A DNA stretch of 64,000 nt from an uncultured Candidatus Saccharibacteria bacterium. Its GTDB lineage: Bacteria > Patescibacteriota > Doudnabacteria > UBA920 > 2-01-FULL-46-14. The stretch lies in assembly GCA_964565195.1 (NCBI GenBank), contig CAZMCQ010000004.1, forward strand, positions 133 to 64,132, written 5' to 3'. The notes beneath the pieces were generated by a model that was not told where the DNA came from, searched no databases, and saw only the letters and a list, made by a program, of their open reading frames with translations. The translations under genes were made by a program, and so were the position numbers. Positions 8,516-59,964 of this stretch are shown here, one piece after another; position 1 is the stretch's first letter, and each line of letters opens with the position of its first letter.

Positions 8516-8540
8516 GGCTTGTTAAAGGCAGGTTAATTTT

Positions 8541-21915: not shown

Positions 21916-23694
21916 ATGACAAAATATAAATTTATCGTTGCCCTTTCCCTTATCGCGCTTGTTTTTGATTTATTCGCGCCGCTCCCGGCAGCCGCGAGCT
22001 ATGATGCGGCCAAGGCCGTCCAGTATCTAAAATCGGGCAGTATTGATGAGTGGACGGTAATGGCGCTGGCTGCAGCAGGAAGTTTATCCGGAGTAAATAC
22101 CGACTTTTTGCAAAATGACGCCGGCGGAGCCGCAACAGCAACAGAGAAGCGGATTCTGGCAGCCGTCGCTGCCGGGCAAAACCCGCAAAATCATCTCACC
22201 GCGCTGACCGCACTTTACAATGGCACGGAGATAAATGCCGCCGCTGGCCTGCTCAACGATGATATCTGGGGACTCCTTGCCTTTGCGGCCGCGCGCGCCA
22301 ACTCAAGTGCGCAGGCGCAGCTGGCGAGTTTTATCAGGCAGAATCAGAACGTTAACGGAGGCTGGAGCTATGCCAAGGCGCCATCGGATTCGGACAGCAA
22401 TGACACGGCCGTGGCGATTATGGCGCTGCTGGCCGCCGGGGAAAGCCCGGATGCCGGGGCCATAACGCGCGGTTTTGGCTATCTGGCCAGCACCCTCACT
22501 GACACGGGTTTTGCCTTTGACGCTGATTCCGGCTTTGGGCCGGATTCGGCTTCAACTTCCTGGGCCATTTCCGCTTATCTGGCCGCGGCGAGAACCGTGC
22601 CGGTAAGCGCGCGGGTTTATCTTGAGAATTTGCAGAAAACCGATGGCTCGTTTCCCTGGCAGCAAGGCGGCTCGGGCAATCCGCAGATGACGGCCCATGC
22701 GGTTATCGCGCTTTCCGGAAAATTTTTCCCGGTGCGCGCCGGGGGAGTGAATTCCAGTTTTGAAGTATCAATCATCGGCCCGAGCGCGACCATTTTCAGC
22801 GGTCATATCACGCTGCCCCCTGGGGCTACCGCGCTTGCCGTTTTGGCCGAAAGTGCAAAGACTGGCAATTTTTCGTATGTGGTCAAAGATACTTCCCTGG
22901 GGTTATTTGTTGAATCCATCGGTGGCATCGGCCCCAGCGGGGACAAGGGATGGATGTATGCTGTGAATGGTGTAAAACCGTCAGTTGGCGCATCGCAATA
23001 TGTGTTGCAAAACGGGGATAAATTAGTTTGGTTTTACGGCGCGCCAGAGATCGCGGTGCCAATTGGTCCACCTTCAGGCAATGGACAAAATTCTGCTGTA
23101 GTCAACCTCTCGCTTCAAGTTTCTGTTCCCGCGGATCCGGAGCCGACAATTATGCTCGCGGCTTCGCGGACCAGCATCGGGCTCGGCGACACTGTTCAGC
23201 TTTCCTGGAGTGCGCAAAACGCGAGCGCGGTTGTAACTTCCACTCCTGGCAATTGGGCGGGCGCTGCCCTGTCCGACACAGTCACTGGCGGACCCCCGCA
23301 GACTACAATTTATTCCATTATGGTGTCCGGCCCGGGAGGCACCAAACAAGCGACAGTGCAGATCAACGTGGACACAACGCCGCAGATTGTGTTCGGGGTC
23401 AATCCTAACAATCTGCATCTGGGCGATTTATCGCCGTCGCATACCACCGTGCAGGGTTCGCTTGTGCTCGCCAATGCAGGCCGAAACAATTTGGCTGTCA
23501 CCGCCACCCTTCAGAACGCGGATGGTCTCTACCAGCAGGCGTTGTTTTTGAACGGTTTTTTGTGGTCCGCGTTTCGCGAGAATTTAGACACGAATTTTTC
23601 CAAAAACGTGAACGTCAGCGTTGTTTTGCCGGCCGGATACAGAAATAACGGCATCAAGACTGGCACGCTGATTTTTTGGGCAGTCCTTCGATGA
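21916..23694 (+). CDS. Secreted surface protein with prenyltransferase/squalene-oxidase-like repeats and a DUF4430 (transcobalamin-like) domain.
   Basis: Signal peptide; repeats NVNGGWSY...DTAVAIMALLAAG; DUF4430-like FSYVVKD...GWMYAVNGVKPSVGASQYVLQNGDKLVWFY. Confidence 0.6.
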   Translation: MTKYKFIVALSLIALVFDLFAPLPAAASYDAAKAVQYLKSGSIDEWTVMALAAAGSLSGVNTDFLQNDAGGAATATEKRILAAVAAGQNPQNHLTALTALYNGTEINAAAGLLNDDIWGLLAFAAARANSSAQAQLASFIRQNQNVNGGWSYAKAPSDSDSNDTAVAIMALLAAGESPDAGAITRGFGYLASTLTDTGFAFDADSGFGPDSASTSWAISAYLAAARTVPVSARVYLENLQKTDGSFPWQQGGSGNPQMTAHAVIALSGKFFPVRAGGVNSSFEVSIIGPSATIFSGHITLPPGATALAVLAESAKTGNFSYVVKDTSLGLFVESIGGIGPSGDKGWMYAVNGVKPSVGASQYVLQNGDKLVWFYGAPEIAVPIGPPSGNGQNSAVVNLSLQVSVPADPEPTIMLAASRTSIGLGDTVQLSWSAQNASAVVTSTPGNWAGAALSDTVTGGPPQTTIYSIMVSGPGGTKQATVQINVDTTPQIVFGVNPNNLHLGDLSPSHTTVQGSLVLANAGRNNLAVTATLQNADGLYQQALFLNGFLWSAFRENLDTNFSKNVNVSVVLPAGYRNNGIKTGTLIFWAVLR

Positions 23695-24863: not shown

Positions 24864-27839
24864 ATGGCGAGACCCGAAGCGCACATTCCCGAAATAAACC
24901 CGCAGCGCGATGCAGATATGCGCCTGATGCCGGCGCGTTCTTTGATGCGTCAGCTTGAGAAACTCGAAAATGAATTCTCTGCAGAGAACACGGACGAGAC
25001 AAAACGGCGTTTGGGAATTATTGAAAAACAAATTATTGAAAAGGCGGGTCCGGAGAATGACCAGCCGAAATCTGACGAATTAACTGATCTATGGTACGAG
25101 CTTTGGGTAAAAGTAAATGGTCTAAAAAATGTTATCGGAACTTACAACAAGGAAACGCCTGCCCCAACTCCAACCGCACAAGTCGTAGATATTGAGCTTG
25201 GCCGCAAAAAGCCGCCGGCAGCCAAAGAAGGGAAAGGTGATGCAAGCGAGGTTGGAGGAGGAACAGGAGCCGCGACAGCTGGTGGCGGCGAGGGCGGCGA
25301 GCCGCCGGATGATGGCGAAAAGAAAAAACTGACCAAAGCGGAAAGGAAAGGGAGCAAAGGAAAGAAGGGGAAAGTCGATGCTGCGGAAGAAGAGCTGGCG
25401 AGCCGCGCGGAAGAGATACGATTTAAACAGGAGGCGGAGGCGGCTGCAAAATTAGCGGCTGAAAAATTGGAGACTGACGAGCAGCCGGCCAAGAAAGAGA
25501 AACACTATGAAGCGATTGGCAACATTGCGCGGCAGAATGCGGTATCGGGTGAGGAATGGCTTCGTGACAAACCGAAACCGGGTTTTGCGGAAGAGGATGC
25601 GCAAAGAATAGCCGAGGCGTTCCAGCAGACAATAGCGGCGCAAACACCTCCCGTGCCGGCGGAAGCAACGCCGGGAGTTTTTGCGGGCAAGGAAGAGCCG
25701 CCCGCCCCGCCGCCTGAAGGCGCGCCAGAGGCAGAACCTGCCCCTGTCCCAACCGCAGGCAGCGGCAAGATTGAGAGGGCGATCAGCGGCCGAGAAAAAC
25801 GAAGCGCGCGCCAGACAGTTGTTGAACAAAATGAGGCGCGCTTTAGAGAGAGAGATGAACGGTTCCGCCAAGCGAAGGCGATGGTCGTCAAGGCCAAAAC
25901 CGGCGATTTTGGCAAAGAGGAAGTCGCAGAATTTGATGAGGTTGCCGGGCCGCTTTTCGAGCACTACCGCGGCCTTCTAAATGTTGCCAAAAGACAAGTT
26001 AAAGCCCATGCCAAACGGAAGCTGGCTGAACTAGACGGAATGCGCAAACTTGTTGAGGCTGGCGAGTTAAAAGGGAAAGCCGAGCAGAACCCCGAGGAGC
26101 GGTTAAGAAACTCGAGGGATTACAAATTGCTGGAAAAGCAGTTTTTGCGCGGCATGAATGTGAGAGAGATGAAATTTAAATTTAATCGCGAAGATGAAAA
26201 GAGGATTGTTGAACTTTTCGAGCGGGATGTGAAGGCAGGACGCGATCCGCTGCAGCGGATCGCTGGAGATATACTTTACAAGGTGCTTGGCGATTACGAT
26301 TTCAATGAACTAAATGCGAAGGACAAAGAGGAATCCGAAAAAAAGTTTCTGGAGGTTGTGCGCCAAGTTTGGAATAATTTCGTCTACGAAAGAAAGGTCA
26401 ACCCGCGGACTGGCCAGTTTGGCATTGGCGAAGGCTCAATGGATACTGACGTCAAGGTGTCGCTTTGGCTTCTCAAAAAAGCGGGTATGGTCGGAGCAGA
26501 GGATGCGCAGTCAGTAAAGGCCGGTGAGGTCGTACCCGGTGCAACCCACGTCGATACCGGGCCGCAAGGCGTTTCCGGAGTCTTTCTCGACCGGCTCGAC
26601 GGAGAAATGATTGCCGGTTTTACCAATCACCCCGAAGGCCGTGATTTCCGAACCTCCAGCGCCAAGATTTTGTTTGAGTTCCTACGCCAGGCCGGTTTTA
26701 TTGAGACGAACGACAGTTCACAGGATGGTTTCAAGCAAAGGCGCGCAATGGAGATGATGGTCCAGTACACAATTGATGAAGATAACGCATCTTTTCCGGT
26801 AAGTAAAGAGGGGAGCATCGCTGATTTTAAAAAAAGCGCTGAAACATTGCGCGGCCTTGGGCGATATCTGTCTGCCGATCAAATGCATGCAGTTTTTATA
26901 GCGTATGATGAGGGCGGACCGTTTGGCGAAACTTATCGGAAAATTTTACAGCGCAAATTCACTCGTGAAGAATTGAGCAATCTAGGATTGCTTGACGAGT
27001 ACAAGCTTGCAGAGTTTCCAAATCGTGATTTTGATTTTGACGCTTACGCCAAGGAATACAGACAAAACAAAATTACGATTCCGGCTTTCGCCCAGTACGC
27101 CATCGAGCAGGCGGGCAGGCGTTTTGACAAATCACCCAAGAGGCGGTTTTCCGAAGGGTGGACGCTTCGGACGCGGTTTGGAAATTATGTCGTGGATATC
27201 GTGCAAGGCCGCGGAGACAAGACACTGGCCGGTTATAATGCCGTACAGGCCTATGGGTTCGATGGTTATATTTCTTATGATGTCCGCAACAACAGCTTTC
27301 TAATCAATACCTTCAATCCCAAAGTTGACTTAAGCCGTGATCCGGGGATTCACGAGCTTCAGAAAAAAACCGGTGCAGTGATTGTTCGCGGCAATATAAT
27401 GATTCGCCCGGGAGCGAAGGACAAACCGTTTAATACCACTCTCAAAGAAATTCTACAGATTCTGACCGGGAAAGAGGAAATTCAAGCCGGGGAGTTGATC
27501 ACCCGCGCTTTGGAACTCGAGAGTAAAGGCGAACTGAAACCCGTCGAGCGATCGGTAGAGAAGTGGAAGAAGAAAAAGAAGAGACAAGAAGCCGCGCCTT
27601 CCCCGAAAGCCAAGGAATTCTCACCCCCTGAAAGGAGAGGGGGCGGGAGTGAAGCGGTAGCAGAAAAAACGGAAAAAGAGAAACAGCGCGAGCAAGTTAC
27701 TAGAGATTGGGAAGAAAAAACAAGGGGTTGGCTCATTGGAGAAAAGAAAACTGAAGAACAAATTCAAAAGTATTTTGACATATTTAGGGATAGCGAAGTT
27801 GAGAAAATAATGAAAATGATCGAGGAAGAAAATGCCTGA
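24864..27839 (+). CDS. Giant (991 aa) charged, K/E/A-rich hypothetical protein with a low-complexity N-terminal third and no signal peptide or TM helices.
   Basis: Long uninterrupted ORF. Its stop overlaps the next start (ATGCCTGA). I recognise no catalytic motif. Confidence 0.7.
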   Translation: MARPEAHIPEINPQRDADMRLMPARSLMRQLEKLENEFSAENTDETKRRLGIIEKQIIEKAGPENDQPKSDELTDLWYELWVKVNGLKNVIGTYNKETPAPTPTAQVVDIELGRKKPPAAKEGKGDASEVGGGTGAATAGGGEGGEPPDDGEKKKLTKAERKGSKGKKGKVDAAEEELASRAEEIRFKQEAEAAAKLAAEKLETDEQPAKKEKHYEAIGNIARQNAVSGEEWLRDKPKPGFAEEDAQRIAEAFQQTIAAQTPPVPAEATPGVFAGKEEPPAPPPEGAPEAEPAPVPTAGSGKIERAISGREKRSARQTVVEQNEARFRERDERFRQAKAMVVKAKTGDFGKEEVAEFDEVAGPLFEHYRGLLNVAKRQVKAHAKRKLAELDGMRKLVEAGELKGKAEQNPEERLRNSRDYKLLEKQFLRGMNVREMKFKFNREDEKRIVELFERDVKAGRDPLQRIAGDILYKVLGDYDFNELNAKDKEESEKKFLEVVRQVWNNFVYERKVNPRTGQFGIGEGSMDTDVKVSLWLLKKAGMVGAEDAQSVKAGEVVPGATHVDTGPQGVSGVFLDRLDGEMIAGFTNHPEGRDFRTSSAKILFEFLRQAGFIETNDSSQDGFKQRRAMEMMVQYTIDEDNASFPVSKEGSIADFKKSAETLRGLGRYLSADQMHAVFIAYDEGGPFGETYRKILQRKFTREELSNLGLLDEYKLAEFPNRDFDFDAYAKEYRQNKITIPAFAQYAIEQAGRRFDKSPKRRFSEGWTLRTRFGNYVVDIVQGRGDKTLAGYNAVQAYGFDGYISYDVRNNSFLINTFNPKVDLSRDPGIHELQKKTGAVIVRGNIMIRPGAKDKPFNTTLKEILQILTGKEEIQAGELITRALELESKGELKPVERSVEKWKKKKKRQEAAPSPKAKEFSPPERRGGGSEAVAEKTEKEKQREQVTRDWEEKTRGWLIGEKKTEEQIQKYFDIFRDSEVEKIMKMIEEENA
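27620..27653 (+). repeat. GC-rich palindromic element in frame in giant protein A (encodes SPPERRGGGSE).
   Basis: tcaccccctgaaaggagagggggcgggagtgaag. Confidence 0.5.
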
Positions 27840-30800
27840 TGGAGAAGGCCACTCACCAGAAGAAGTGCAGCGAATTATCCGCGAAGAGATCGCGGCTAAA
27901 TTTCGCAAACCAAAAGTAGATAAACAAGAACAGCCAGCGGCGGAAAAAATTGAAATTGCCGCGCCGCTGGTGGAATCCGAACTTCCGGCTCCAGAGCCGG
28001 AATTGCCCGCGCCAACCCTGCCGGAGAAAAAAGAGGAACTCCCGCCAGCTGCAAAATTCAAAACGGGTGACCGAGTTCGTCGGTATGTTGTTAGAGATAA
28101 AGACGAAAAGCCGGAGGTAGATCCGACCCCGCGGATCATTCGTGAAGTCAAGCTACGCCCAGGGATGCAAACTGCCTATGTTTTAAGTGACGGCAGTGAA
28201 ACCGTGGAGAGCTGGTTGGAAAAAGCGCCGGACGATGCGCTTGCCGCCAGCCAAGAAATTAAACCTCCTTCCAGCACAGAACCAAAAGTGGAAGCAGAAT
28301 CACAGCCCGAAAGAACTTTAGAACAAACCGTGGCCGAAGTGGCCAAGGATTTCTTCGCGGAGAAGGCCCGGCAGGCCAATTTGTCGGAAGACGAGCAGAG
28401 GCATCTGCGCGCGATGTATGACAAAATAGTTCGTGAAAAAGGTTTTATTGAAAAAGTTTCCGATGCGACGATAGGGAAAATAAAGCAACGGAAATATCTG
28501 GGGTGGGCGCCTGAATTTATCGCATCCGGTGTGAGCGGGTATATTCTTCGCAGCACGGTTCGAAGCGGTCTCGAAGCAGCAATATCACTAGGCACGGTCG
28601 GAACAGGCGCGGGCGTTGGCGCACTCGTCGGCGGCGCGATGGGTTCGTTTTCCGAATACCGGAAAGCAAGAAAAGAAGCGTACGGGGTTGCCAGTTGGGC
28701 TAAGGAGCTTGAAGGCAAGGACAACGTCGTTCTAGCCGGACAATATGAAGCCTTAAAACAAGCGATCGCTGACGCCAAAGTTAAGGGCAATGAAAATGAA
28801 GCTTGGGAACTCGTGATGAAGCTGCGCGATATTGGAACGAAACTGGCGCAGGAGGGGGGGCCTGAACAAATCTTTTCCCAAAGACTGGATGATGACAAAA
28901 CCACAGCCCTTACTGGCGCGCGCGGTGAGATCTATAAAAAAATGTTGGATACACGGAGCAAGCACATCAGAAGTAAAGCAGGCATAGGGCTTCTCAAAGG
29001 AGCGGCTATTGGAGCAGTCGGTGGAACCCTTGGCGCGCTTATCAGCGATTATGTCGCGGGGTGGCGGCATCTCGAGGATTTAAAGACGGCGAAAGCACCG
29101 GTCAATCAGGAGATAATCGATTATGTTCAAGACAGAGCAAGGGAGGCCAAAGAAGCAGCGATTGAGAGATCGCTCGACCATTCCATGGATCAGCTAGCGA
29201 GCCATTCCTTTACCCAGCATGTTCAGAGCGGAGAAGGACTTACGCATGTTGCCCGTGGCTTTATTCATGATTATCTGACACAGGATAACCGTATCAGACT
29301 TTCCCGCGAACAGCTTTTGTACGCGGAGGATTATTTGCAAAAGCATATGACCGACCATCTCCAGCCCGGCCAGGAATATGTACTGAAAGGTCAGCAAATT
29401 TTGGATGCCATCAGTGCCGCGCGAACTTTAACCGAAGATAAGATCGAAAATCTTAAGCAAAATTGGGTATCGAAAGTGGCGGAGAAAGTTTGGGATAGGA
29501 CGCAGGACTATAGCCAGACTTTCGACAGTACTAACCAATTTACGCAAGGATTTGTCAGGGAAGCCCAGGCGCAGGGCGAAGCGGCTGCGCAAAAATATCT
29601 CGATGAAGCCGCGGGAATGTCGCTTGAACAAATGGCAGAAGTTGCCAAAGCAGCCGGCGCGGCAGCGGCTACTGCCGAGCGCAATAATCTAATCATGAGA
29701 TACGTTGCGGGAGCCGTAGGTATAACCGCAGTCGGATTTGGAATAAAAAGAGCTTTTGATCGATTCCGCGCGCCAAAACAGGAAACAAAAACTTCGATGT
29801 TGGGACTGGATGACAAAAAGGGGCCGGAGCCAACCGAACCGCCACGGCCAGGGCCACAGCCTGCGCCCGACCAAGAACTTAGAGATATAATGGGATTGGA
29901 GCCAGAGGAACCACAACCGGTACCCCAAACGCCAAAGTCTGAGAACAAATCGCTGTTAGGATTTCTGAAGCGAAAGAAAGAGGGGCCGCAACTAGACAGG
30001 ACTGCACAGGAAGCAGCGCAAAAGGAAGCAGAAAAATTGGAAGAGGCAAAACAGGCGGCAGATCCGATTATTGCTTGGTACCAGAGCCAAGGATTAGAAG
30101 CAAAGCCAGGGGATGTGTATTACAGAGCAATTATTCCAGAAGACATCGGCAAAGCGAGTGCCAGCACCTTGAGTTTTTCGAATTACTCGGATTACAGGGC
30201 TCATATGGAAAGCCTTTCTCCGTATATAAGGGGTCGTGCGCTCCGTTATGATCGAGTTGGGCCTTTGAGTTCAGAAGAGTTTTGGGAGCAAAAGAATAAA
30301 TTATCTAAGTCAGCATTGACTGAATGGAGAACATCTTATAGCAAAATCCTTTTGGGTTTATATGAAGATAGATTTACGGGAAAGCCGGAATCGGTAATGA
30401 AAACGGAGGAGGAAATGAAGGCGATACGAAAAGAATTGGAAGATGAGTATGGTCTTTATTTTGCAGACGACTGGTCGGTAGGATATGACGCTAATTATTA
30501 TGCGGCGGAAAAAATAAAAGAAGTTTTGCCGAAGATTCCAAAAGAAAGACTAAACCGTGTACGTTTTAAGCCCGCATTAAAGAATGAAATTAGCAAAGAA
30601 GGGATAATTCTTTTCAATCCTGATGCAGGCCCTTCTGAACTCCAGAAGTATATTGGAGATATCGCGCTCGAAGCCGCAAATGTAATTAACACGAAAACTG
30701 AAGATGCCCGAGAGAAAATTTATGAGTTGGAGCGTACATATAATATAGAAGTTTACAGTACCGTCTATGGGGATAAATTTTTGAGAGCAGCGGAAGTTTT

Positions 30801-30987
30801 TAAAGAAGCATTAGCTGGTCAGACAAATTTGCCTTCAGATTTAGGATTTGCCATTTTGAATAGTCCAGAGGATTATCATTACAAAAATCGTATAAACCTC
30901 CTATGGAATATGACGTCGGAGGAAATGCGAACGGAAATAGCAAGATTTTTAGAAAATAAAAACAAAGAAGGGAATCAAAATGGCTGA
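27832..30987 (+). CDS. Giant (1051 aa) hypothetical protein: charged N-terminus, three glycine-zipper hydrophobic segments, a Pro-rich linker, and a C-terminal module of about 290 aa that is compositionally distinct (AT-rich).
   Basis: Segments AISLGTVGTGAGVGALVGGAMGSF, AGIGLLKGAAIGAVGGTLGALISDYVAGW, YVAGAVGITAVGFGI; linker KGPEPTEPPRPGPQPAPDQ...PEEPQPVPQTPK. GC drops from about 55% to about 37% after about 30060. Confidence 0.7.
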   Translation: MPDGEGHSPEEVQRIIREEIAAKFRKPKVDKQEQPAAEKIEIAAPLVESELPAPEPELPAPTLPEKKEELPPAAKFKTGDRVRRYVVRDKDEKPEVDPTPRIIREVKLRPGMQTAYVLSDGSETVESWLEKAPDDALAASQEIKPPSSTEPKVEAESQPERTLEQTVAEVAKDFFAEKARQANLSEDEQRHLRAMYDKIVREKGFIEKVSDATIGKIKQRKYLGWAPEFIASGVSGYILRSTVRSGLEAAISLGTVGTGAGVGALVGGAMGSFSEYRKARKEAYGVASWAKELEGKDNVVLAGQYEALKQAIADAKVKGNENEAWELVMKLRDIGTKLAQEGGPEQIFSQRLDDDKTTALTGARGEIYKKMLDTRSKHIRSKAGIGLLKGAAIGAVGGTLGALISDYVAGWRHLEDLKTAKAPVNQEIIDYVQDRAREAKEAAIERSLDHSMDQLASHSFTQHVQSGEGLTHVARGFIHDYLTQDNRIRLSREQLLYAEDYLQKHMTDHLQPGQEYVLKGQQILDAISAARTLTEDKIENLKQNWVSKVAEKVWDRTQDYSQTFDSTNQFTQGFVREAQAQGEAAAQKYLDEAAGMSLEQMAEVAKAAGAAAATAERNNLIMRYVAGAVGITAVGFGIKRAFDRFRAPKQETKTSMLGLDDKKGPEPTEPPRPGPQPAPDQELRDIMGLEPEEPQPVPQTPKSENKSLLGFLKRKKEGPQLDRTAQEAAQKEAEKLEEAKQAADPIIAWYQSQGLEAKPGDVYYRAIIPEDIGKASASTLSFSNYSDYRAHMESLSPYIRGRALRYDRVGPLSSEEFWEQKNKLSKSALTEWRTSYSKILLGLYEDRFTGKPESVMKTEEEMKAIRKELEDEYGLYFADDWSVGYDANYYAAEKIKEVLPKIPKERLNRVRFKPALKNEISKEGIILFNPDAGPSELQKYIGDIALEAANVINTKTEDAREKIYELERTYNIEVYSTVYGDKFLRAAEVFKEALAGQTNLPSDLGFAILNSPEDYHYKNRINLLWNMTSEEMRTEIARFLENKNKEGNQNG

Positions 30988-37151: not shown

Positions 37152-38390
37152 TTGGCGACCATGAATTTTTTTGAAATCACAAAAAAGGACGAAAATTCGC
37201 CGGCCCGCGCCGCAATTTTACATACGGCCGCAGGCCGGGTGCACACGCCGGCTTTTTTGCCGATCGCCACGCGCGGGGGAGTCAAGGCCGTGACCATGGA
37301 GGAGGTAAAATTCTGGGGCGCGGAAATAATTTTAGCCAATACTTATCATCTTTGGCAGCGGCCCGGAGACAATCTCATCCGCAAGCAGGGCGGGCTCCAC
37401 AAATTCATTGGCTGGTCCGGCCCGATCCTCACGGATTCGGGCGGGTTTCAGGTATTTTCCTTGGGAGAGAAAAGACATGTCCCTCTTCCGAAAAACCCTC
37501 TCCTTGAGAGGGGGGGGTGGCCGGAGGCCGGGAGGGGTAGAGATGCCCATGGCCGCGTTCTGAAGATAAGTGCAAAAGGCGTTCTATTTCACTCAGACCT
37601 TGATGGCGCGACCCGTGAGCTCACTCCCGAGGATTCGCTCAATATTCAATCTAACCTGGGGTCTGACATTGCGCTTGTCCTGGATTATTTTCCCGCATAC
37701 CCGTTTACGAAAGAAGGGATGCGGAAAGCAGTGCAGTTGACTTTGCAATGGGCCGAACGCAGCGCCAGACATTTTGAGAAAATCCGCGCTGCGGGCGTGA
37801 ACCCCGCGCAGCGCCTGTTCGGCATCGTGCAGGGCGGCGATTTCGCAGATTTGCGTAAACTGTGCGCGGAGAAATTGCGGGCAATGGATTTTGCGGGCTA
37901 CGCGATTGGCGGCGTGGCGGTCGGGGAGCCGATCGATGCGATGTACCGCGCGGTGGAGATGACAGTCCCTCATCTTGAGGAAGACAAGCCGCGGCACCTT
38001 TTGGGCGTCGGCACGCCGGAGCAGCTCATCGGCGCGGTCGCTCGTGGCTGTGATCTCTTTGATTGTGTTTTGCCGACGCGCAACGCGCGGCATGGCACGC
38101 TGTTTATAAATAATAAAAACGAGGGCGGCTACTCGATCCTGAACATTGACAACGCCAGTTTCGCCGAAGACGGGACGCCCGTGGACAACACCTGCAACTG
38201 CTACCTCTGCCTGCGGCACACGCGGGCCTATCTGCGGCACTTGTTTGCCACGCGCGATCCGCTTGCGGTGCGCCTCGCAACCATGCACAATCTGCGCTTT
38301 TATCTGAATCTGATGGAAAAAATCCGTCGCGCGATCGAGTATGATACTATGAGCGAGCTGCTTGGTGGTTTCCGGCGGAGTATTGTATAA
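37152..38390 (+). CDS. tgt: Queuine tRNA-ribosyltransferase carrying an in-frame insertion of about 30 aa.
   Basis: DSGGFQVFSL, LLGVGTPE, CVLPTRNARHG, Zn site CNCYLC...H; inserted segment GEKRHVPLPKNPLLERGGWPEAGRGRDAHG. Confidence 0.9.
   Translation: MATMNFFEITKKDENSPARAAILHTAAGRVHTPAFLPIATRGGVKAVTMEEVKFWGAEIILANTYHLWQRPGDNLIRKQGGLHKFIGWSGPILTDSGGFQVFSLGEKRHVPLPKNPLLERGGWPEAGRGRDAHGRVLKISAKGVLFHSDLDGATRELTPEDSLNIQSNLGSDIALVLDYFPAYPFTKEGMRKAVQLTLQWAERSARHFEKIRAAGVNPAQRLFGIVQGGDFADLRKLCAEKLRAMDFAGYAIGGVAVGEPIDAMYRAVEMTVPHLEEDKPRHLLGVGTPEQLIGAVARGCDLFDCVLPTRNARHGTLFINNKNEGGYSILNIDNASFAEDGTPVDNTCNCYLCLRHTRAYLRHLFATRDPLAVRLATMHNLRFYLNLMEKIRRAIEYDTMSELLGGFRRSIV
37481..37540 (+). repeat. GC-rich palindromic element in frame in tgt.
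   Basis: ccctcttccgaaaaaccctctccttgagaggggggggtggccggaggccgggagggg. Confidence 0.65.
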
Positions 38391-38404
38391 TTTATACAAA
38401 CCAA

Positions 38405-39298
38405 ATGAAGAAACTTCTCCTGATAATTTGTCTTAGTTTTATCCTCATTTCTCCATTTTTCGCTCTCGCGGCCGAATCAGGGCTCGGCGACACTGGTTTT
38501 GAAACAGTTTGTAAGAAGGGGGGCGAACTCGCCTTAGGTGCCTGCATTGCCAACATCTATAAACTTTCCCTGGGTTTAGGCGCCGTGGTGGCGCTCTTCA
38601 TGACCATTCTGGCCGGCTACCGGTATATGAATGCGGCCGGCAACGCCGAGCAGGTGGAGAGCGCCAAGGAATCCTTTACCTACGCGATCACCGGCCTCAT
38701 CATCCTCTTCGTGGCCTATGCCCTGCTCTACACGATCAACCCAGACCTGGTGAAATTCCGCAAGGTCGGGGACATCGGCAAGCTGCCGGCGATAGTGTTT
38801 CAGGCGCCGGCTCCGCCTATCACGGGTCCAGCTATTGATTTGGCCAAACAGATCCAGGGTCTAGCCGCACGGATCACTTTGGCCATGGTGCATGCCTCCG
38901 GCAATTCCGACAACGCGACCGCGAGAAAGAATATTGACGATACGGCAGAGGGCCGGGAGGCTTTGCACAGCTGCTATGGTACAGCACCTTGCAAAAGTGT
39001 GGCTTTGGATGAAACCATGCTCGGCGCGATGATCGAACTCGCGAAAACTTATTCATTTTCTGTAAGCGAGATCGCCGGCGGCGCACACAGCGCCAATTCC
39101 GCTCATTATGCCGGTCGCGCTTTTGATGTGAATTATATAAATGGAACTCGTGTTAACGCGAGCCACCCTTCGCAGCAGGCGTTCAGAGATAAATGCCGGA
39201 CCTTGGGCGCGGTGCAATATCTGGGCCCGGGCGCTGCCGGACATTCGACCCATATCCACTGCGCCTGGGCAGCCGGCGGGACGGATATAGGAGATTAA
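38405..39298 (+). CDS. Fusion protein: TrbC/VirB2-like pilin N-terminal region plus peptidase M15 (VanY/D-Ala-D-Ala carboxypeptidase-like) domain.
   Basis: Signal peptide plus two TM helices (LGLGAVVALFMTILAGYRYM...ITGLIILFVAYALLYTINP); M15 motifs SAHYAGRAFDVNY and HSTHIHCAW. Confidence 0.55.
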   Translation: MKKLLLIICLSFILISPFFALAAESGLGDTGFETVCKKGGELALGACIANIYKLSLGLGAVVALFMTILAGYRYMNAAGNAEQVESAKESFTYAITGLIILFVAYALLYTINPDLVKFRKVGDIGKLPAIVFQAPAPPITGPAIDLAKQIQGLAARITLAMVHASGNSDNATARKNIDDTAEGREALHSCYGTAPCKSVALDETMLGAMIELAKTYSFSVSEIAGGAHSANSAHYAGRAFDVNYINGTRVNASHPSQQAFRDKCRTLGAVQYLGPGAAGHSTHIHCAWAAGGTDIGD

Positions 39299-48690: not shown

Positions 48691-51600
48691 ATGTATAGCC
48701 ACAAAAAGATTGAACCGAAGTGGCAGCGTTGGTGGCAGAAGCAGAAACTTTATGCCACGCCGAAGAAGCTGGGCCGGAAAAAGCAGTATGTTTTGGATAT
48801 GTTTCCATACCCTTCGGGCGCGGGGCTGCATGTCGGGCACCCCGAGGGCTATACCGCGACGGACATTTACTCACGCTATTTGCGGATGAACGGCTATAAT
48901 GTGCTGCATCCGATGGGCTGGGACGCGTTTGGGCTGCCGGCGGAAAACTATGCCATCAAAGAGGGAATTCACCCGGCCAAATCGACAGCCGCGAATATCA
49001 AACGCTTTCGCGAGCAGATAAAGATGCTCGGGCTTTCCTATGACTGGGACCGCGAGATAAACACTGCTGATCCTGACTACTATAAATGGACGCAGTGGCT
49101 GTTTTTGAAATTCTACGAGAAAGGCCTCGCGTACCGCAAAGAGGCCAGCGTGAACTGGTGTCCCGAGGACCAGACAGTGCTCGCCAATGAGCAGGTCATC
49201 AATGGCCACTGCGAGCGCTGCGGCACCGCAGTCGTGCAAAAACTTCTGCCACAATGGTTTTTGAAGATCACTGACTATGCCGACCGCCTTCTGGCAGGTT
49301 TGGACAAGATTGATTGGCCGGAGCCGATCAAGCTGATGCAGCGAAACTGGATCGGCCGCTCGGAAGGCGCGGAAATGGAGTTTGGAATCAAGAATCAAGA
49401 ATCAAGAATCAAGAATTTTGTCTTGCTACATGGATTTAATGGTAATCCCTCGGGTGTGTTTTTGCCGTGGGTTGCAAAAGAATTACGAAAAGCGGGATTC
49501 AAAGTTCAAATTCCGCAGTTGCCTAATCCTGCAAATCCGACTGAAGAAGAACAGGTTTGGCATGTGCTAAAAAATATTGAATTTGATGAAAATACAGTTT
49601 TGCTTGGTCATAGTCTTGGTGCAGTTGTCGCTATGAAAGTTCTTGAAAGATTAAATATAAAGATCGCGGGACTTGTTTTGGTGGGCGGTTTCGTTGAGCA
49701 TAATTTCAAAGATAGGCCGCGGCCTTTTGATAAAACTTTTTCCTGGAAGTTTGATTTTTCAAAGATTCGAAAAAAAGCAGGCTTTGTAAAAATTCTAAGT
49801 TCGGTGGATGATTATGCGGTTCCTATCGAACAAGGACGGATATTACAAGAGAAATTGCGAGGCGAATTGGTCGAAATCAAAGGCGAGAAGCCGCATTTTA
49901 CGAATACTGAAGAGCCAGTTGTTTTGGAAGCATTACTGCCGAAGATTAAGATCTTCACCACGCGCCCGGACACGATCTATGGCGCGACATATATGGTGCT
50001 GGCGCCGGAACACCCGCTCGTCGTTTCGCTCCTCGCGTCCACCCCCTCCTTTTCCTCCCCCCTCGAGGGGGAGGAGGGGTGGGGGGGAATTCAAAATCCA
50101 AAGGAAGTCAGAAAATACATTGATGAGGCAAGGAAGAAGACAGAGCTGCAGCGTACCGCGCTTGAGAAGGATAAGACTGGCGTTGAGCTGAAAGGGATCA
50201 AGGCGATCAATCCAGCGACTAAAGAAGAAATTCCGGTCTGGATCGCGGATTATGTCCTGATGGGCTATGGCACAGGCGCCATCATGGCCGTGCCGGCTCA
50301 CGACGAGCGGGATTTTGTTTTTGCAAAAAAATATAAGCTGCCGATTAGAAAGGTAATTATTCCACCGGAAATAGTTAGTGAACCAGTCCAGCCGCCCAGT
50401 CCTGGCGCTTGGGGGCATCTTGACGCGGATTTGGAAGCTGACGTGTGGATTGGAGACGGTAAGCTTGTGAATTCCGGAAAGTTTAACGGACAGGATTCGG
50501 AAAAGGCCAAATGGAAAATAACGGCTTTGGTAAACGGGGTTAAAAAGGTCCAGTACAAACTCCGCGATTGGTTGATAAGTCGCCAGCGGTACTGGGGGGC
50601 GCCGATTCCGATTGTTTATTGTGAGGACTGTGGAATACAGCCGGTTCCTGAAAAAGATCTGCCAGTGAAACTGCCGACAGACGTGGATTTCCGGCCGACT
50701 GGCGAGTCCCCGCTTGCGCGGTCAAAAAGTTTTCATGAAGTGAAATGCCCGAATTGCGGCAAAGCCGCGCGGCGCGATACGGATACAATGGATACATTTG
50801 TGGATTCCTCCTGGTACTATTTGCGTTTCACTGACCCGCACAACAAAAAAGAATTCGCCTCGAAAAAAGAGACAAGTAAATGGTGTCCGGTGGATGTGTA
50901 TGTCGGCGGCGCGGAGCACGCGGTGCTGCACCTGATGTACGCGCGGTTTTTCTGGAAGGCGCTCGCGGATATGAAGCTGGTCAACGGCTCAACCGCGGAT
51001 GAGCCGTTTCTGAAGCTGCGCAATCAGGGTCTGATTTTGGGCCCGGATGGCCAGAAAATGAGCAAATCACGAGGCAATGTGATAAATCCGGACGATGTCG
51101 TGGATGAATATGGCGCGGACTCAATGCGGATGTTCGAGATGTTTATGGGGCCCCTGGAGGACGCCAAGCCTTGGAGTACGCAGGGGATAAAAGGGGTGCG
51201 AAGATTTTTGGAGAAGGGATGGCGATTGTTCTCTGACGTCATTCCCGCGCAGGCGGGAATCCAGACTGGATCCCGGATCAAGTCCGGGATGACAGAAACA
51301 CAAAGACTCCTTCATAAAACCATTAAGAAAGTAGGCGAGGATATTAAATCTTTCAAATTTAACACCGCGGTTTCGGCAATGATGATATTGGTGAATGAAA
51401 TGACCCTTCGACAAGCTCAGGGTATAAATAAAAAAGATTGGGAGACATTTTTGAAACTCCTCGCCCCCTTTGCGCCGCACATGGCCGAGGAGTTATGGCA
51501 GAAATTGGGTCACAAGAAATCCGTTCACCTCGAGCCATGGCCGCAGTATGACGAAAAATTGGTTGAAGAGGAAGAGGTAAATATCGTCGTCCAGGTGAAT

Positions 51601-51756
51601 GGCAAAGTTCGGGCGACTTTTAAGGCGTCGAGGAGCGCGTCGCAGGTCGATATTGAAAAATTGGCCAAAGCAGATGAGAACGTGGCAAAATATCTCGAAG
51701 GCAAAGTCAGGAAAGTTATTTTTGTTCCAGGCAAGGTAATTAACTTCGTCATCTGA
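48691..51756 (+). CDS. leuS: Leucine--tRNA ligase carrying an inserted serine-hydrolase domain and two short palindromic insertions.
   Basis: HVGHPEGY (HIGH), KMSKSRGN, CP1 TTRPDTIYGATY, anticodon-binding region; 1021 aa. Confidence 0.95.
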   Translation: MYSHKKIEPKWQRWWQKQKLYATPKKLGRKKQYVLDMFPYPSGAGLHVGHPEGYTATDIYSRYLRMNGYNVLHPMGWDAFGLPAENYAIKEGIHPAKSTAANIKRFREQIKMLGLSYDWDREINTADPDYYKWTQWLFLKFYEKGLAYRKEASVNWCPEDQTVLANEQVINGHCERCGTAVVQKLLPQWFLKITDYADRLLAGLDKIDWPEPIKLMQRNWIGRSEGAEMEFGIKNQESRIKNFVLLHGFNGNPSGVFLPWVAKELRKAGFKVQIPQLPNPANPTEEEQVWHVLKNIEFDENTVLLGHSLGAVVAMKVLERLNIKIAGLVLVGGFVEHNFKDRPRPFDKTFSWKFDFSKIRKKAGFVKILSSVDDYAVPIEQGRILQEKLRGELVEIKGEKPHFTNTEEPVVLEALLPKIKIFTTRPDTIYGATYMVLAPEHPLVVSLLASTPSFSSPLEGEEGWGGIQNPKEVRKYIDEARKKTELQRTALEKDKTGVELKGIKAINPATKEEIPVWIADYVLMGYGTGAIMAVPAHDERDFVFAKKYKLPIRKVIIPPEIVSEPVQPPSPGAWGHLDADLEADVWIGDGKLVNSGKFNGQDSEKAKWKITALVNGVKKVQYKLRDWLISRQRYWGAPIPIVYCEDCGIQPVPEKDLPVKLPTDVDFRPTGESPLARSKSFHEVKCPNCGKAARRDTDTMDTFVDSSWYYLRFTDPHNKKEFASKKETSKWCPVDVYVGGAEHAVLHLMYARFFWKALADMKLVNGSTADEPFLKLRNQGLILGPDGQKMSKSRGNVINPDDVVDEYGADSMRMFEMFMGPLEDAKPWSTQGIKGVRRFLEKGWRLFSDVIPAQAGIQTGSRIKSGMTETQRLLHKTIKKVGEDIKSFKFNTAVSAMMILVNEMTLRQAQGINKKDWETFLKLLAPFAPHMAEELWQKLGHKKSVHLEPWPQYDEKLVEEEEVNIVVQVNGKVRATFKASRSASQVDIEKLAKADENVAKYLEGKVRKVIFVPGKVINFVI
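49383..49953 (+). other. In-frame insertion encoding a complete YdeN-family serine hydrolase (alpha/beta hydrolase, PF06821-like) within leuS.
   Basis: NFVLLHGFNGNPSGVFLPWVAKELRKAGFKVQIPQLPNP...VLLGHSLGAVVAMKVL...GGFVEHNF...SSVDDYAVP...GEKPHF. It aligns along its length with Bacillus YdeN and is AT-rich relative to the flanks. Confidence 0.75.
50040..50087 (+). repeat. Nested GC-rich palindromic element in frame in leuS (encodes TPSFSSPLEGEEGWGG).
   Basis: caccccctcc-ttt-tcctcccccctcgagggggagga-ggggtggggg. Confidence 0.7.
51237..51293 (+). repeat. Second-type double-hairpin element in frame in the 3' part of leuS.
   Basis: GTCAT-TCCCGC-GCAG-GCGGGA-atccagactgg-ATCCCGGA-tcaag-TCCGGGAT-GAC; encodes VIPAQAGIQTGSRIKSGMT. 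Confidence 0.5.
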
Positions 51757-59893: not shown

Positions 59894-59964
59894 CGGGGTA
59901 TGGGGTAGTGGTAGCCCGCGTGCATGGGGTGCATGTAGCGGCGGTTCAATTCCGCCTACCCCGA
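59894..59964 (+). tRNA. tRNA-Pro (anticodon GGG); CCA not encoded.
   Basis: Acceptor CGGGGTA/TACCCCG, D-arm GGGT-AGTGGTA-GCCC, anticodon stem CGTGC/GCATG with loop ATGGGGT, T-arm GGCGG-TTCAATT-CCGCC. Confidence 0.8.

What the first reader, a model, noticed from the sequence alone, without database searches (positions are those of the whole stretch)
38405..39298. VirB2/TrbC-like pilin N-terminus fused to an M15 peptidoglycan peptidase domain
The N-terminal 110 residues have the hallmark T4SS pilin layout: a signal peptide, then two hydrophobic helices separated by a short polar loop (LGLGAVVALFMTILAGYRYMNAAGNAEQVESAKESFTYAITGLIILFVAYALLYTINP). The C-terminal 160 residues carry M15 (VanY/hedgehog-type) zinc-peptidase motifs (SAHYAGRAFDVNY; HSTHIHCAW). 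No other T4SS genes are nearby; it sits between tgt and glyQS. It could be a surface-anchored or pilus-tip cell-wall hydrolase. For an episymbiont that would be a plausible host-wall-attacking tool.
Basis: partly seen in the sequence, partly recalled or inferred. Interest (0 to 1): 0.55.

Follow-up and report, generated by a model that had tools for sequence, protein, structure and literature searches.

The report
Pilin-hairpin-tethered cell-wall zinc peptidase
A tiny symbiotic (CPR) bacterium encodes a protein in which a membrane hairpin of the conjugation-pilus (VirB2-like) type carries a zinc enzyme that very probably cuts bacterial cell-wall peptides outside the cell; this domain combination recurs across CPR bacteria, and I found no description of it in the papers I could search.

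Summary
ORF 38405-39298 (+, 297 aa) runs signal peptide, two-helix hairpin, Pro-rich linker, then a 150-residue globular domain.

- **Hairpin:** it passes Pfam's threshold for PF18895 T4SS_pilin (42.8 vs 26.6 bits). It aligns in register to genuine VirB2/TrbC only moderately (hhalign 66.5%) and fails PF04956's threshold.
- **C-domain:** a high-confidence model (pLDDT 94) has the LAS/Hedgehog-DD-peptidase fold. The best match is Streptomyces albus Zn DD-carboxypeptidase (1LBU, M15A). The SxHxxGxAxD and HxH zinc motifs are intact and conserved. Co-varying Cys pairs indicate an extracytoplasmic location.
- **Distribution:** the fusion is not a one-off. I found 17 clusters among the fetched proteins, plus further loci in the genome and metagenome scans, all in CPR bacteria. 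The hairpin family is huge (19,346 clusters) and highly modular, with adhesin-like or wall-hydrolase partners.
- **Context:** no fusion lies next to VirB4. Seven distinct loci follow a coiled-coil M23 peptidase gene. One full-length homologue has a downstream neighbour related to the gene that follows a VirB4-linked cluster pilin elsewhere. The essential T4SS cluster of S. epibionticum contains a DD-peptidase-fold protein.

Most likely it is a surface-tethered peptidoglycan peptidase. Whether it serves own-wall remodelling, T4SS passage or host attack is unresolved. It is a new variant of known parts, of moderate interest.

The parts
38405..39298 (+). Whole gene (297 aa + stop): modular VirB2-like pilin hairpin fused to a LAS/M15A-like zinc peptidase. 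NCBI protein HY398_00065, 'hypothetical protein', Candidatus Doudnabacteria MAG.
38405..38470 (+). Sec-type signal peptide, residues 1-22 (MKKLLLIICLSFILISPFFALA|A). The cleavage site is inferred from the AxA motif.
   Evidence: AF2 helix 2-23. Cleavage is inferred, not shown.
38471..38530 (+). Short mature N-terminal segment. It holds C36; its conserved partner C47 lies just inside helix 1. The pair is nearly invariant in the pilin family and is probably a disulfide on the outer face.
   Evidence: C36 and C47 conserved in at least 90%; invariant in the fusions
38531..38629 (+). Hairpin helix 1 / TM1 (residues 43-75, hydrophobic core 46-64)
   Evidence: PF18895 match spans 47-110
38630..38644 (+). 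Turn between the helices (NAAGN). With the following polar stretch AEQVESAKES it forms the presumed cytoplasmic loop (the lumen-facing loop in a pilus). G79 is invariant.
38645..38737 (+). Hairpin helix 2 / TM2 (residues 81-111, hydrophobic core 89-107)
38735..38749 (+). INPDL motif directly after TM2 (I111, N112, P113, D114, L115), a family signature of unknown role
   Evidence: invariant or nearly invariant
38750..38827 (+). Pro-rich, low-confidence linker (residues 116-141), a flexible tether of about 25 residues
   Evidence: pLDDT 50-72, no secondary structure
38828..39280 (+). Globular LAS (Hedgehog/DD-peptidase fold) domain, M15A-like, residues 142-292
   Evidence: AF2 pLDDT 94.1; 1LBU best by profile (E 0.0021) and by Foldseek (prob 0.98); phage peptidase prob 1.00
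38972..38992 (+). C190...C196 pair (SCYGTAPC), which co-varies across 47 homologues (both Cys or neither) and is a likely disulfide
39098..39127 (+). S232-x-H234-x-x-G237-x-A-x-D241: the M15 signature with the first two zinc ligands (H-x6-D)
39242..39259 (+). G-H280-x-x-H283-x-H285: the H-x-H motif (third zinc ligand plus catalytic His). It aligns to GHNDHTH of 1LBU.

Best explanation
The gene encodes a surface-tethered peptidoglycan peptidase built on a pilin scaffold. Sec export and signal-peptide cleavage leave a two-helix hairpin in the membrane with both ends outside. The hairpin is a member of the CPR 'T4SS_pilin' PF18895 family and is distantly VirB2-like. A Pro-rich tether of about 25 residues then holds a disulfide-stabilised zinc LAS/M15A-type domain just outside the membrane. 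There the domain cleaves D-Ala-D-Ala ends or cross-links of peptidoglycan stem peptides. The role I consider most likely is local remodelling or opening of the bacterium's own wall at the cell surface. In the Saccharibacteria-type orthologues it would act together with a coiled-coil M23 endopeptidase encoded immediately upstream. In this reading the pilin hairpin is the generic CPR module for anchoring or presenting extracytoplasmic domains.

Shown: the domain identities, intact zinc-ligand motifs, helix layout and recurrence of the fusion. Inferred: the topology, catalytic activity, substrate and biological role.
For: - **Architecture:** PF18895 above threshold; signal peptide plus two TM helices.
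- **C-domain:** a confident C-domain model whose best sequence-profile and fold matches are PG peptidases: 1LBU, ChiX, VldE, LysB4 and phage peptidases.
- **Active site:** H228, H234, D241, H283 and H285 are conserved in the query and nearly all of 47 homologues.
- **Outside location:** a cleavable signal peptide followed by two TM helices forces an N-out, C-out arrangement. Cys pairs co-vary in the C-domain and are conserved ahead of TM1. Non-CPR relatives are secreted proteins fused to PG-binding domains.
- **Short tether:** the linker is only about 25 residues, which keeps the enzyme close to the producer's own membrane.
- **Context:** the gene is tightly packed between tgt and the downstream tRNA synthetase gene (gaps of 14 and 1 nt), with no terminator between them. 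Seven distinct orthologous loci place the fusion directly after a coiled-coil M23 peptidase with intact HxxxD and HxH motifs, in housekeeping neighbourhoods. FtsEX lies about 8 kb away in one of them.
- **No T4SS neighbours:** none of about 11 loci with a true fusion has VirB4 within reach.
Against: - A plain membrane anchor would not need a hairpin that keeps every conserved position of stand-alone pilins at 53-61% identity.
- The fusion is patchy. S. epibionticum has only one DD-peptidase-fold protein, and that one lies in its T4SS cluster, so the fusion is not a universal housekeeping enzyme.
- The closest C-domain relatives (60-64% identity) are secreted enzymes of Herpetosiphon, which I recall as predatory bacteria, and of Actinobacteria. 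That fits an outward-directed lytic role equally well.
- P0042, a full-length homologue, has a downstream neighbour related to the gene that follows a VirB4-linked cluster pilin elsewhere.
- No activity, substrate or localisation data exist.
Confidence: 0.45

Rival explanations
1. T4SS-dedicated wall opener, a functional analogue of VirB1. The pilin hairpin recruits the peptidase into the membrane pilin pool or assembly site of the Patescibacterial type IV secretion system. There it cuts the wall locally so that the channel or pilus can pass.
For: - The hairpin belongs to the same Pfam family as the essential cluster pilins SEML1_0014-0019 of S. epibionticum.
- That cluster also encodes, next to VirB4, an essential protein with a Hedgehog/DD-peptidase-fold domain (SEML1_0007) and a lysozyme/CHAP protein (SEML1_0006). 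Our protein therefore fuses two module types that co-occur in one T4SS locus.
- P0050, a pilin hit of the query, lies two genes downstream of VirB4 (E 5e-38 to 4AG5).
- P0051 (pilin plus an extra domain) is its positional orthologue. P0042, a true homologue of the fusion, is followed by a homologue of the same 435/445 aa partner gene.
- The hairpin is repeatedly fused to SLT, lysozyme-like and M15 modules. This mirrors the VirB1-VirB2 adjacency of classical operons and the TM-anchored hydrolases of Gram-positive T4SSs, which I cite from memory.
- The 2025 survey notes that most Patescibacteria with VirB2-like genes lack a recognisable VirB1.
Against: - No true pilin-M15A fusion is adjacent to VirB4 in about 11 loci, and the window plus 10 kb has no T4SS gene.
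- Whether this MAG has a T4SS at all could not be checked. Only another Doudnabacteria-class genome is listed as VirB4-positive.
- The homology of P0051's extra domain to this C-domain is not significant.
Confidence: 0.25
2. Enzyme-armed pilus or host-directed weapon. The hairpin polymerises, as a minor or tip subunit, into a VirB2-type filament. This displays the DD-peptidase on the outside of the filament, where it weakens the host bacterium's wall at the contact site.
For: - The hairpin is as well conserved as in stand-alone pilins.
- Extensions occur at either terminus of the hairpin, in proteins of up to more than 1,000 aa, and include adhesin-like partners (TIG, Ig-like, discoidin, beta-propeller). 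This pattern suggests display of cargo.
- The nearest C-domain relatives are secreted enzymes of Herpetosiphon and Actinobacteria.
- From memory: both termini of VirB2/TraA pilins face the pilus exterior, and peptides fused to the C-terminus of F-pilin are displayed on pili.
Against: - No pilus has been shown for PF18895 proteins; reviews speak only of 'potential to elaborate conjugative pili'.
- A 150-residue cargo on a tightly packed VirB2-type lattice has no precedent.
- The housekeeping operon context and the M23 pairing do not suggest a specialised weapon.
Confidence: 0.2
3. Carrier and release. As with C-terminal processing of TrbC/VirB2 prepilins, the chain is cut after the INPDL motif, which frees a soluble secreted DD-peptidase. 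The hairpin serves only as an export carrier or becomes an ordinary pilin.
For: - An invariant INPDL motif sits exactly at the hairpin/linker junction.
- The C-domain exists as a free secreted protein of about 180 aa in many other bacteria.
- C-terminal trimming of TrbC/VirB2 is established biology, cited from memory.
Against: The signal peptide alone would suffice for secretion. No protease site has been demonstrated. Stand-alone pilins keep INPDL followed by short tails, so the motif need not mark a cleavage site.
Confidence: 0.07
4. Non-catalytic module. The LAS domain only binds peptidoglycan or another ligand, as in Hedgehog-like proteins, and anchors the hairpin to the wall.
For: Hedgehog N-domains are among the sequence matches, and some LAS proteins are non-enzymatic (from memory).
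Against: All zinc ligands and the catalytic His are conserved across the family, including the fusions. The best match is an active DD-peptidase.
Confidence: 0.03

Closest known systems
PF18895 'T4SS_pilin' proteins of Patescibacteria (e.g. the essential pilin array SEML1_0014-0019 of Southlakia epibionticum; Wang et al. 2023, PMC10633639; Quinonero-Coronel et al. 2025, PMC12102498)
   Same: Signal peptide, Cys pair, two long hydrophobic helices and the INPDL motif. The score is above the Pfam threshold, and the hairpin is 53-61% identical to stand-alone members.
   Different: It carries a 150-residue enzyme on its C-terminus and is not encoded in a pilin array or next to VirB4. The papers I could search do not describe such fusions.
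VirB2/TrbC conjugative pilins (Pfam PF04956; Agrobacterium VirB2)
   Same: Overall layout: signal peptide ending in AxA, then a two-helix hairpin. The profile-profile alignment covers TM1-loop-TM2 in register.
   Different: The score is below PF04956's threshold (12.9-18.5 vs 27.9 bits) and hhalign gives only 66.5%. There is no VirB1/VirB3/VirB4 neighbourhood (compare). Nothing is known about cyclisation or polymerisation.
Streptomyces albus G zinc D-Ala-D-Ala carboxypeptidase (MEROPS M15A, PDB 1LBU)
   Same: It is the best hit by sequence profile (E 0.0021) and by fold (prob 0.98). The motifs match: SRHxxGxAxD and GHxxHxH. Non-CPR relatives share its PG-binding-domain plus catalytic-domain architecture.
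   Different: Identity is only 24% over 97 aligned columns (TM 0.38). Pfam M15 models stay below threshold. The partner here is a pilin hairpin rather than a PG-binding domain.
Membrane-anchored cell-wall hydrolases of Gram-positive T4SSs and VirB1 (PrgK, TraG of pIP501, CwlT, TcpG; from memory and as discussed in PMC12102498)
   Same: A TM-anchored, outward-facing PG hydrolase. Relatives stack a peptidase and a glycosidase module (P0003: M15A+SLT; P0145: M15A+SLT_3) as those enzymes do.
   Different: The anchor is a pilin-family hairpin rather than a single TM helix. The catalytic type is LAS/M15 rather than SLT/CHAP/NlpC-P60. The gene is not encoded in a T4SS locus.
SEML1_0007 of S. epibionticum (essential, next to VirB4, with an ECOD Hedgehog/DD-peptidase domain at 951-1105)
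   Same: The same fold class of wall peptidase in a Patescibacterium, and it is functionally tied to a T4SS cluster that also holds PF18895 pilins.
   Different: It is a protein of about 1,100 aa with no reported pilin hairpin.
Modular type IV pilins (e.g. Streptococcus sanguinis PilB/PilC; from memory)
   Same: The concept is the same: a pilin module grafted to a functional cargo domain.
   Different: It is an unrelated pilin class. This protein has a Sec signal peptide and a two-TM hairpin, not a class III (G|FTLxE) prepilin signal. Genuine type IV pilin genes with that signal are seen in L018.

Membership tests
Pfam PF18895 T4SS_pilin (CPR VirB2-like pilins) | Score above the curated gathering threshold | tested here: met
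   42.8 bits vs 26.6, E 5.7e-11, residues 47-110 covering model positions 8-70 of 71
Pfam PF18895 T4SS_pilin (CPR VirB2-like pilins) | Signal peptide, then two hydrophobic helices with a short loop, plus the family signatures (Cys pair, G71, G79, G97, INPDL) | tested here: met
Pfam PF18895 T4SS_pilin (CPR VirB2-like pilins) | Encoded with T4SS genes (VirB4 and others) | tested here: not met
   There are none in the 64 kb window or 10 kb beyond it. The relative P0050 does lie two genes from VirB4. The literature finds the pilin near virB4 in only 1,135 of 1,948 assemblies.
Pfam PF18895 T4SS_pilin (CPR VirB2-like pilins) | Assembles into an extracellular filament | not testable with these tools
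   No experimental demonstration was found, even for stand-alone members.
TrbC/VirB2 pilins (PF04956) | Score above the gathering threshold | tested here: not met
   12.9 bits (whole protein) and 18.5 bits (N-half alone) vs 27.9
TrbC/VirB2 pilins (PF04956) | Profile-level homology to genuine VirB2/TrbC | tested here: inconclusive
   hhalign of A4 vs 8 annotated VirB2/TrbC: prob 66.5%, E 5.4e-5, 62 columns over both helices. TM composition can inflate this. The pilin profile hits no solved pilin sequence. 6 of 73 family members hit PF04956, best E 1.5e-13.
LAS metallopeptidases / MEROPS M15 | Zinc ligands H-x(3-6)-D and H-x-H | tested here: met
   H234-x6-D241 lies within SxHxxGxAxD, together with H283-I-H285. 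These residues are invariant or near-invariant across homologues and align to the equivalent 1LBU residues.
LAS metallopeptidases / MEROPS M15 | Hedgehog/DD-peptidase fold | tested here: met
LAS metallopeptidases / MEROPS M15 | Pfam M15 models above threshold | tested here: not met
   Peptidase_M15_3 scores 14.0-15.6 vs 23.2 bits and Peptidase_M15_4 scores 12.6-14.4 vs 25. The domain is not covered by current curated models.
M15A subfamily (S. albus Zn DD-carboxypeptidase type) | Closest relationship to the M15A holotype over the catalytic domain | tested here: inconclusive
   1LBU is the best hit in profile-vs-PDB (E 0.0021) with matching GHxxHxH. JGI names several homologues 'zinc D-Ala-D-Ala carboxypeptidase'. 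Identity is low (24%).
LAS metallopeptidases / MEROPS M15 | Zn-dependent hydrolysis of peptidoglycan peptides | not testable with these tools
   This needs biochemistry.
VirB1-like T4SS wall hydrolases | PG hydrolase encoded within, and required by, a T4SS locus | tested here: not met
   No T4SS locus surrounds this gene or any true orthologue examined.
Type IV (T4P) pilins | Class III signal peptide (G|F-x-x-x-E) and N_methyl motif | tested here: not met
   The N-terminus is a Sec type I signal. Compare the genuine GFTLLE motifs in L018.

The most novel reading that the evidence does not exclude
The VirB2-like hairpin really does polymerise, and this protein is a cargo-bearing minor or tip subunit of a Patescibacterial T4SS pilus. 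The result would be an enzymatically armed conjugative-type pilus that carries a peptidoglycan DD-peptidase (in relatives also lytic transglycosylases or adhesin domains) to the host bacterium's wall. 'Modular VirB2-type pilins' would then be a general CPR strategy for host interaction.
Probability: 0.15. Interest if true: 0.85.

Novelty: new variant of a known kind. Interest (0 to 1): 0.5.

Why it matters
CPR/Patescibacteria are a large share of bacterial diversity and live attached to other microbes, and how they breach or remodel cell walls is poorly understood. Their VirB2-like pilins are essential in the one genetically tractable species, yet no pilus or function has been shown.

This protein shows that the pilin hairpin is a modular scaffold that repeatedly carries wall-degrading enzymes (M15A-like, SLT, lysozyme-like) and adhesin-type domains. 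That gives concrete, testable candidates for several open questions:
- what the pilin family actually does (anchor, display or filament);
- the 'missing VirB1' of Patescibacterial T4SSs;
- enzymes acting at the symbiont-host interface.

The C-domain family is also a well-conserved DD-peptidase clade that current Pfam M15 models do not capture.

Tried and rejected
- **Hairpin fold and profile searches:** Foldseek with the full-length model added nothing for the hairpin, because any helical hairpin matches. The N-domain as a single sequence and as a profile found no solved pilin among PDB sequences.
- **Locus scan with A2:** the 28-sequence alignment was too diverse for the locus scan, so A1 and A6 were used instead.
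- **P0051:** I considered it a second pilin-LAS fusion inside a T4SS cluster. Its synteny with the VirB4-linked pilin is solid, but homology of its extra domain to this C-domain is not significant (hhalign prob 1.1%). It is kept as motif-level only.
- **P0049:** I read it as a VanY-type fusion from its motifs (SMAHFAGNALD...EPWH). Neither Pfam nor PDB searches confirm this.
- **T4SS in this MAG:** I tried to learn whether GCA_016198105.1 has VirB4 from Table S1 of PMC12102498. The stored file is truncated and the MAG is not in the visible part. The MAG is also absent from the GTDB-representative collection, since the pattern that matches this gene did not retrieve it.
- **Paralogues and partners in the window:** I looked for a second pilin module, a second C-domain, an M23 gene or the T4SS-cluster partner genes, and found none.
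- **Own promoter:** the scan finds no -35/-10 pair upstream. TGTATAAT at 38384-38391 is only my reading of the sequence.
- **Rejected alternatives:** a type IV (T4P) pilin (wrong signal type) and an annotation artefact or chance ORF (full-length homologues at 30-53% identity).
Full report
**Observation.** It is identical to NCBI protein HY398_00065, 'hypothetical protein', from a Candidatus Doudnabacteria MAG (assembly GCA_016198105.1). It sits between queuine tRNA-ribosyltransferase (TGT, E 5e-133) and a class II aminoacyl-tRNA synthetase with GlyRS-type domains, in a + strand run that begins with rpsO and pnp. The intergenic gaps are 14 nt and 1 nt, and no terminator-like site separates the three genes. 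The gene is therefore probably co-transcribed with housekeeping genes.

**N-terminal module.**
- Hydropathy gives three segments: residues 1-19, 46-64 and 89-107.
- The AF2 model of the full protein (pLDDT 85.4) shows a signal-peptide helix, two long helices (43-75 and 81-111) joined by a five-residue turn, then an unstructured Pro-rich linker (116-141).
- Pfam places residues 47-110 in PF18895 T4SS_pilin at 42.8 bits, against a threshold of 26.6. TrbC/VirB2 PF04956 reaches only 12.9-18.5 bits against 27.9. NCBIfam gives a sub-threshold hit to a Mycoplasma ICE 'pilin-like conjugal transfer protein'.
- To test the VirB2 link I built a profile of 24 stand-alone relatives (A4). I built a second profile from eight annotated VirB2/TrbC proteins taken from conjugative plasmids, each flanked by VirB1 and VirB3.
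- hhalign aligns the two profiles in register across TM1-loop-TM2 with probability 66.5% and E 5e-5. This is moderate support, weakened by transmembrane composition bias. The A4 profile finds no solved pilin in PDB sequences.
- Family signatures retained by this protein are a Cys pair before TM1 (C36, C47), G71, G79, G97 and an INPDL motif directly after TM2. The hairpin is 53-61% identical to stand-alone pilins, so it is not a degenerate copy.

**C-terminal module.**
- Pfam M15 models hit only below threshold. The domain nevertheless has many homologues, at 40-65% identity. Some are free secreted proteins of about 180 aa, several named 'zinc D-Ala-D-Ala carboxypeptidase' by JGI. Others are fused to PG-binding, B-lectin, chitosanase or SLT domains.
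- In an alignment of 20 sequences (A1), H228, H234, D241, H285 and W288 are invariant and H283 is nearly so (converted to full-length numbering).
- A profile search of PDB sequences puts the Streptomyces albus G Zn DD-carboxypeptidase 1LBU first (E 0.0021). It aligns SRHxxGxAxD and GHxxHxH, and Hedgehog N-domains follow.
- AF2 on A1 gives pLDDT 94.1 and pTM 0.89.
- Foldseek against the PDB ranks 1LBU first (prob 0.98). ChiX, VldE and LysB4, all LAS-type peptidoglycan peptidases, rank 2nd, 4th and 11th, interspersed with low-probability unrelated matches. Against viral models the top hits are a phage peptidase (prob 1.00, rmsd 2.5 A over 97 columns), a Hedgehog-annotated protein and DD-carboxypeptidases.
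- Across 47 homologues the zinc and catalytic residues are kept. C190 and C196 co-vary (both Cys or neither), and C264 and C286 are mostly both Cys, as expected for disulfides in an exported domain.

**Topology (inferred).** A cleavable signal peptide followed by two membrane helices puts both the mature N-terminus and the C-terminal domain outside the cytoplasm. The conserved Cys pairs on both outer parts fit this arrangement. So does the nature of the enzyme. The tether is only about 25 residues long.

**The family is modular.**
- An exhaustive phmmer search with residues 1-130 against 1.84 billion representatives finds 19,346 clusters at E<=1e-3. The module occurs alone, at the N-terminus with C-terminal cargo, at the extreme C-terminus of proteins over 1,000 aa, and in tandem. 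Examples of tandem copies are 8 matched stretches in 820 aa and 15 in 3,796 aa.
- Of the 164 module-bearing proteins I held, only 30 are plain pilins. This set is biased towards high total scores.
- A Pfam census of 73 fusions finds TIG (6), SLT (5), SLT_3 (3), CHB_HEX_C/Fn3_assoc (3), Ig-like, discoidin, LVIVD and beta-propeller domains, and M15_4/VanY.
- Seventeen proteins carry both this hairpin and this M15A-like domain. P0003 adds an SLT domain, and P0145 adds a lysozyme-like domain and a further M15 motif.
- In an unsupported NJ tree the pilin-fused C-domains are scattered among stand-alone ones. The query and P0002 nest among non-CPR sequences.
- A scan of GTDB representative genomes finds the closest C-domain relatives (60-64% identity) in five Herpetosiphon species. 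Others are in Frankiaceae, Pseudonocardia, Paractinoplanes and elsewhere. Only the two CPR loci, L030 (Saccharibacteria) and L032, are pilin-fused.

**Genomic contexts.**
- The window has no second pilin module or C-domain. It has no T4SS or type IV pilus gene by Pfam and no homologue of a CPR-type VirB4. The next 10 kb holds ribosomal and elongation-factor genes.
- Seven distinct loci place the fusion directly after a coiled-coil M23 peptidase: L001-3, L018, L030, L052, L054, L057 and L070. These neighbourhoods are housekeeping (WecG, GltX, a class-V aminotransferase), and FtsEX lies about 8 kb away in L001. The L018 M23 protein has intact HxxxD and HxH motifs. L018 also carries three genuine type IV pilin-like genes upstream.
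- No true fusion is next to VirB4.
- There is still a link to T4SS clusters. P0050, a 186 aa pilin retrieved by the query, lies in the order VirB4, 323 aa gene, pilin, 435 aa gene, jag-yidC-rnpA-dnaA. The VirB4 identity is shown by E 5e-38 to PDB 4AG5.
- L017 is syntenic to that locus (65% and 62.5% identity for the flanking genes, 54% for the hairpin). Its pilin, P0051, has gained a C-terminal domain. That domain's relation to ours is not significant.
- P0042 is a full-length homologue of our protein (30% identity, 99% coverage). It is followed by a homologue of the same 435/445 aa partner gene and lies about 9 kb from dnaA.

**Literature.**
- Patescibacterial T4SSs resemble monoderm MPF_FATA systems, but most assemblies also carry VirB2-like pilins detected with PF18895/PF04956, often in arrays, and most lack a recognisable VirB1 (PMC12102498).
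- In S. epibionticum the T4SS cluster beside dnaA is essential. Its supplementary annotation lists SEML1_0014-0019 as PF18895 pilins, SEML1_0008 as VirB4 and SEML1_0006 as lysozyme-like plus a cysteine proteinase domain. SEML1_0007 carries a Hedgehog/DD-peptidase domain. All are scored essential (PMC10633639).
- The two module types fused here therefore co-occur as separate essential genes of one T4SS locus.
- I found no paper describing pilin-enzyme fusions.
- A Doudnabacteria-class genome is listed as VirB4-positive, but this MAG is not in the stored part of that table.

**Mechanism.** With high confidence (about 0.9) the protein is an outward-facing zinc peptidoglycan peptidase, tethered to the membrane by a VirB2-like pilin-family hairpin. 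The biological role is less certain.
- **Own-surface wall remodelling or opening (0.45).** It is favoured by the short tether, the housekeeping operon, the conserved M23 partnership and the absence of VirB4 adjacency.
- **T4SS-dedicated VirB1-like role (0.25).** It is supported by the family identity of the hairpin, the S. epibionticum precedent, the P0042/P0050/P0051 synteny and the recurrent hydrolase cargo.
- **Pilus-displayed, host-directed enzyme (0.2).** It is supported by full conservation of the hairpin, cargo at either terminus with adhesin-like partners, and the secreted enzymes of a genus I recall as predatory being the nearest relatives.
- **Release by C-terminal processing at INPDL (0.07)** and **a non-catalytic binding role (0.03)** are minor alternatives.

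**Comparison and novelty.** The protein is a member of PF18895. It is not a demonstrated member of PF04956. It belongs to the LAS/M15 superfamily by motifs and fold and is closest to M15A, although curated M15 models miss it. It works like the membrane-anchored wall hydrolases of Gram-positive T4SSs but fails their defining locus criterion. It is not a type IV pilin.

The parts are known. The combination, a modular VirB2-type pilin carrying a wall peptidase, recurs across CPR lineages, and I found no description of it in the papers I could search. I rate it a new variant of a known kind, with interest 0.5.

**Limits.** There is no activity, localisation or polymerisation evidence. The T4SS status of this genome is unknown. 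The tree has no support values. Two attractive supporting cases (P0049, P0051) did not pass statistical tests. Statements about Herpetosiphon predation, pilin terminus exposure, TrbC processing, Gram-positive T4SS hydrolases and modular type IV pilins come from my own knowledge, not from tool results.

Noticed in passing
window 24864-30987 (+): Two adjacent giant ORFs (991 aa and 1,051 aa) overlap by 8 nt. Neither has a signal peptide or a Pfam hit at 1e-3, and the only PADLOC hit is a weak HEAT-ARM match (E 5e-4). The region has markedly positive AT and GC skew.
   Followed up: partly
window 48691-51756 (+): The leucyl-tRNA synthetase (1,021 aa) appears to carry an alpha/beta-hydrolase (Ser_hydrolase PF06821, 32 bits vs 22 threshold) insert at residues ~244-402. 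The insert lies between the N-terminal catalytic part and the editing domain.
   Followed up: no
window 7205-9797 (+): Two consecutive secreted proteins (436 aa and 418 aa, both with Sec signal peptides) have no family assignment.
   Followed up: no
window 21916-23694 (+): A 592 aa protein combines DUF4430 with weak squalene-hopene-cyclase/prenyltransferase-like repeats.
   Followed up: no
window 16105-17902 (+): A CN-hydrolase (276 aa) and a Porphyromonas-type peptidyl-arginine/agmatine deiminase (346 aa) are encoded side by side, which suggests an agmatine-to-putrescine route in this reduced genome.
   Followed up: no
window 59894-59964 / 59908: tRNA-Pro(GGG) overlaps the mechanical GTG start of the class-III aminotransferase ORF. 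The NCBI gene call is shorter (385 aa vs 426 aa), so the true start is downstream.
   Followed up: partly
P0053, P0188, P0078, P0080 (proteins): PF18895 hairpins occur as covalent tandem arrays, for example 8 matched stretches in 820 aa and 15 in 3,796 aa. They also occur at the extreme C-terminus of proteins over 1,000 aa. How tandem pilin hairpins would behave in a membrane or a filament is unexplained.
   Followed up: partly
L050 1810-4705; L017 31-3232; L012 9564-10694: Two conserved families without Pfam hits flank the origin-proximal T4SS-cluster pilin just downstream of VirB4. One is a secreted protein of 314-323 aa and the other is 376-445 aa. They are candidate CPR-specific T4SS components.
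   Followed up: partly
L018 279-1585: Three type IV pilin-like genes with class III signal motifs (GFTLLE) lie directly upstream of the M23 peptidase and the pilin-M15A-SLT fusion. Two different pilin classes thus sit beside wall hydrolases in one short contig.
   Followed up: no
L016 6526-11278: Two tandem paralogous pilin-hairpin fusion proteins (459 aa and 425 aa, 39% identical) sit next to a 1,714 aa RCC1-repeat protein, a DUF4215 protein and a DsbA-like thioredoxin. Their C-terminal domains show VanY-like motifs that no search confirmed.
   Followed up: partly
L019 (Herpetosiphon aurantiacus plasmid pHAU01) and L020-L024: Herpetosiphon species each carry PG-binding-domain plus M15A-like proteins that are 60-64% identical to the CPR C-domain. 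One copy is on a plasmid, which hints at horizontal movement of this domain between Chloroflexota and CPR bacteria.
   Followed up: no
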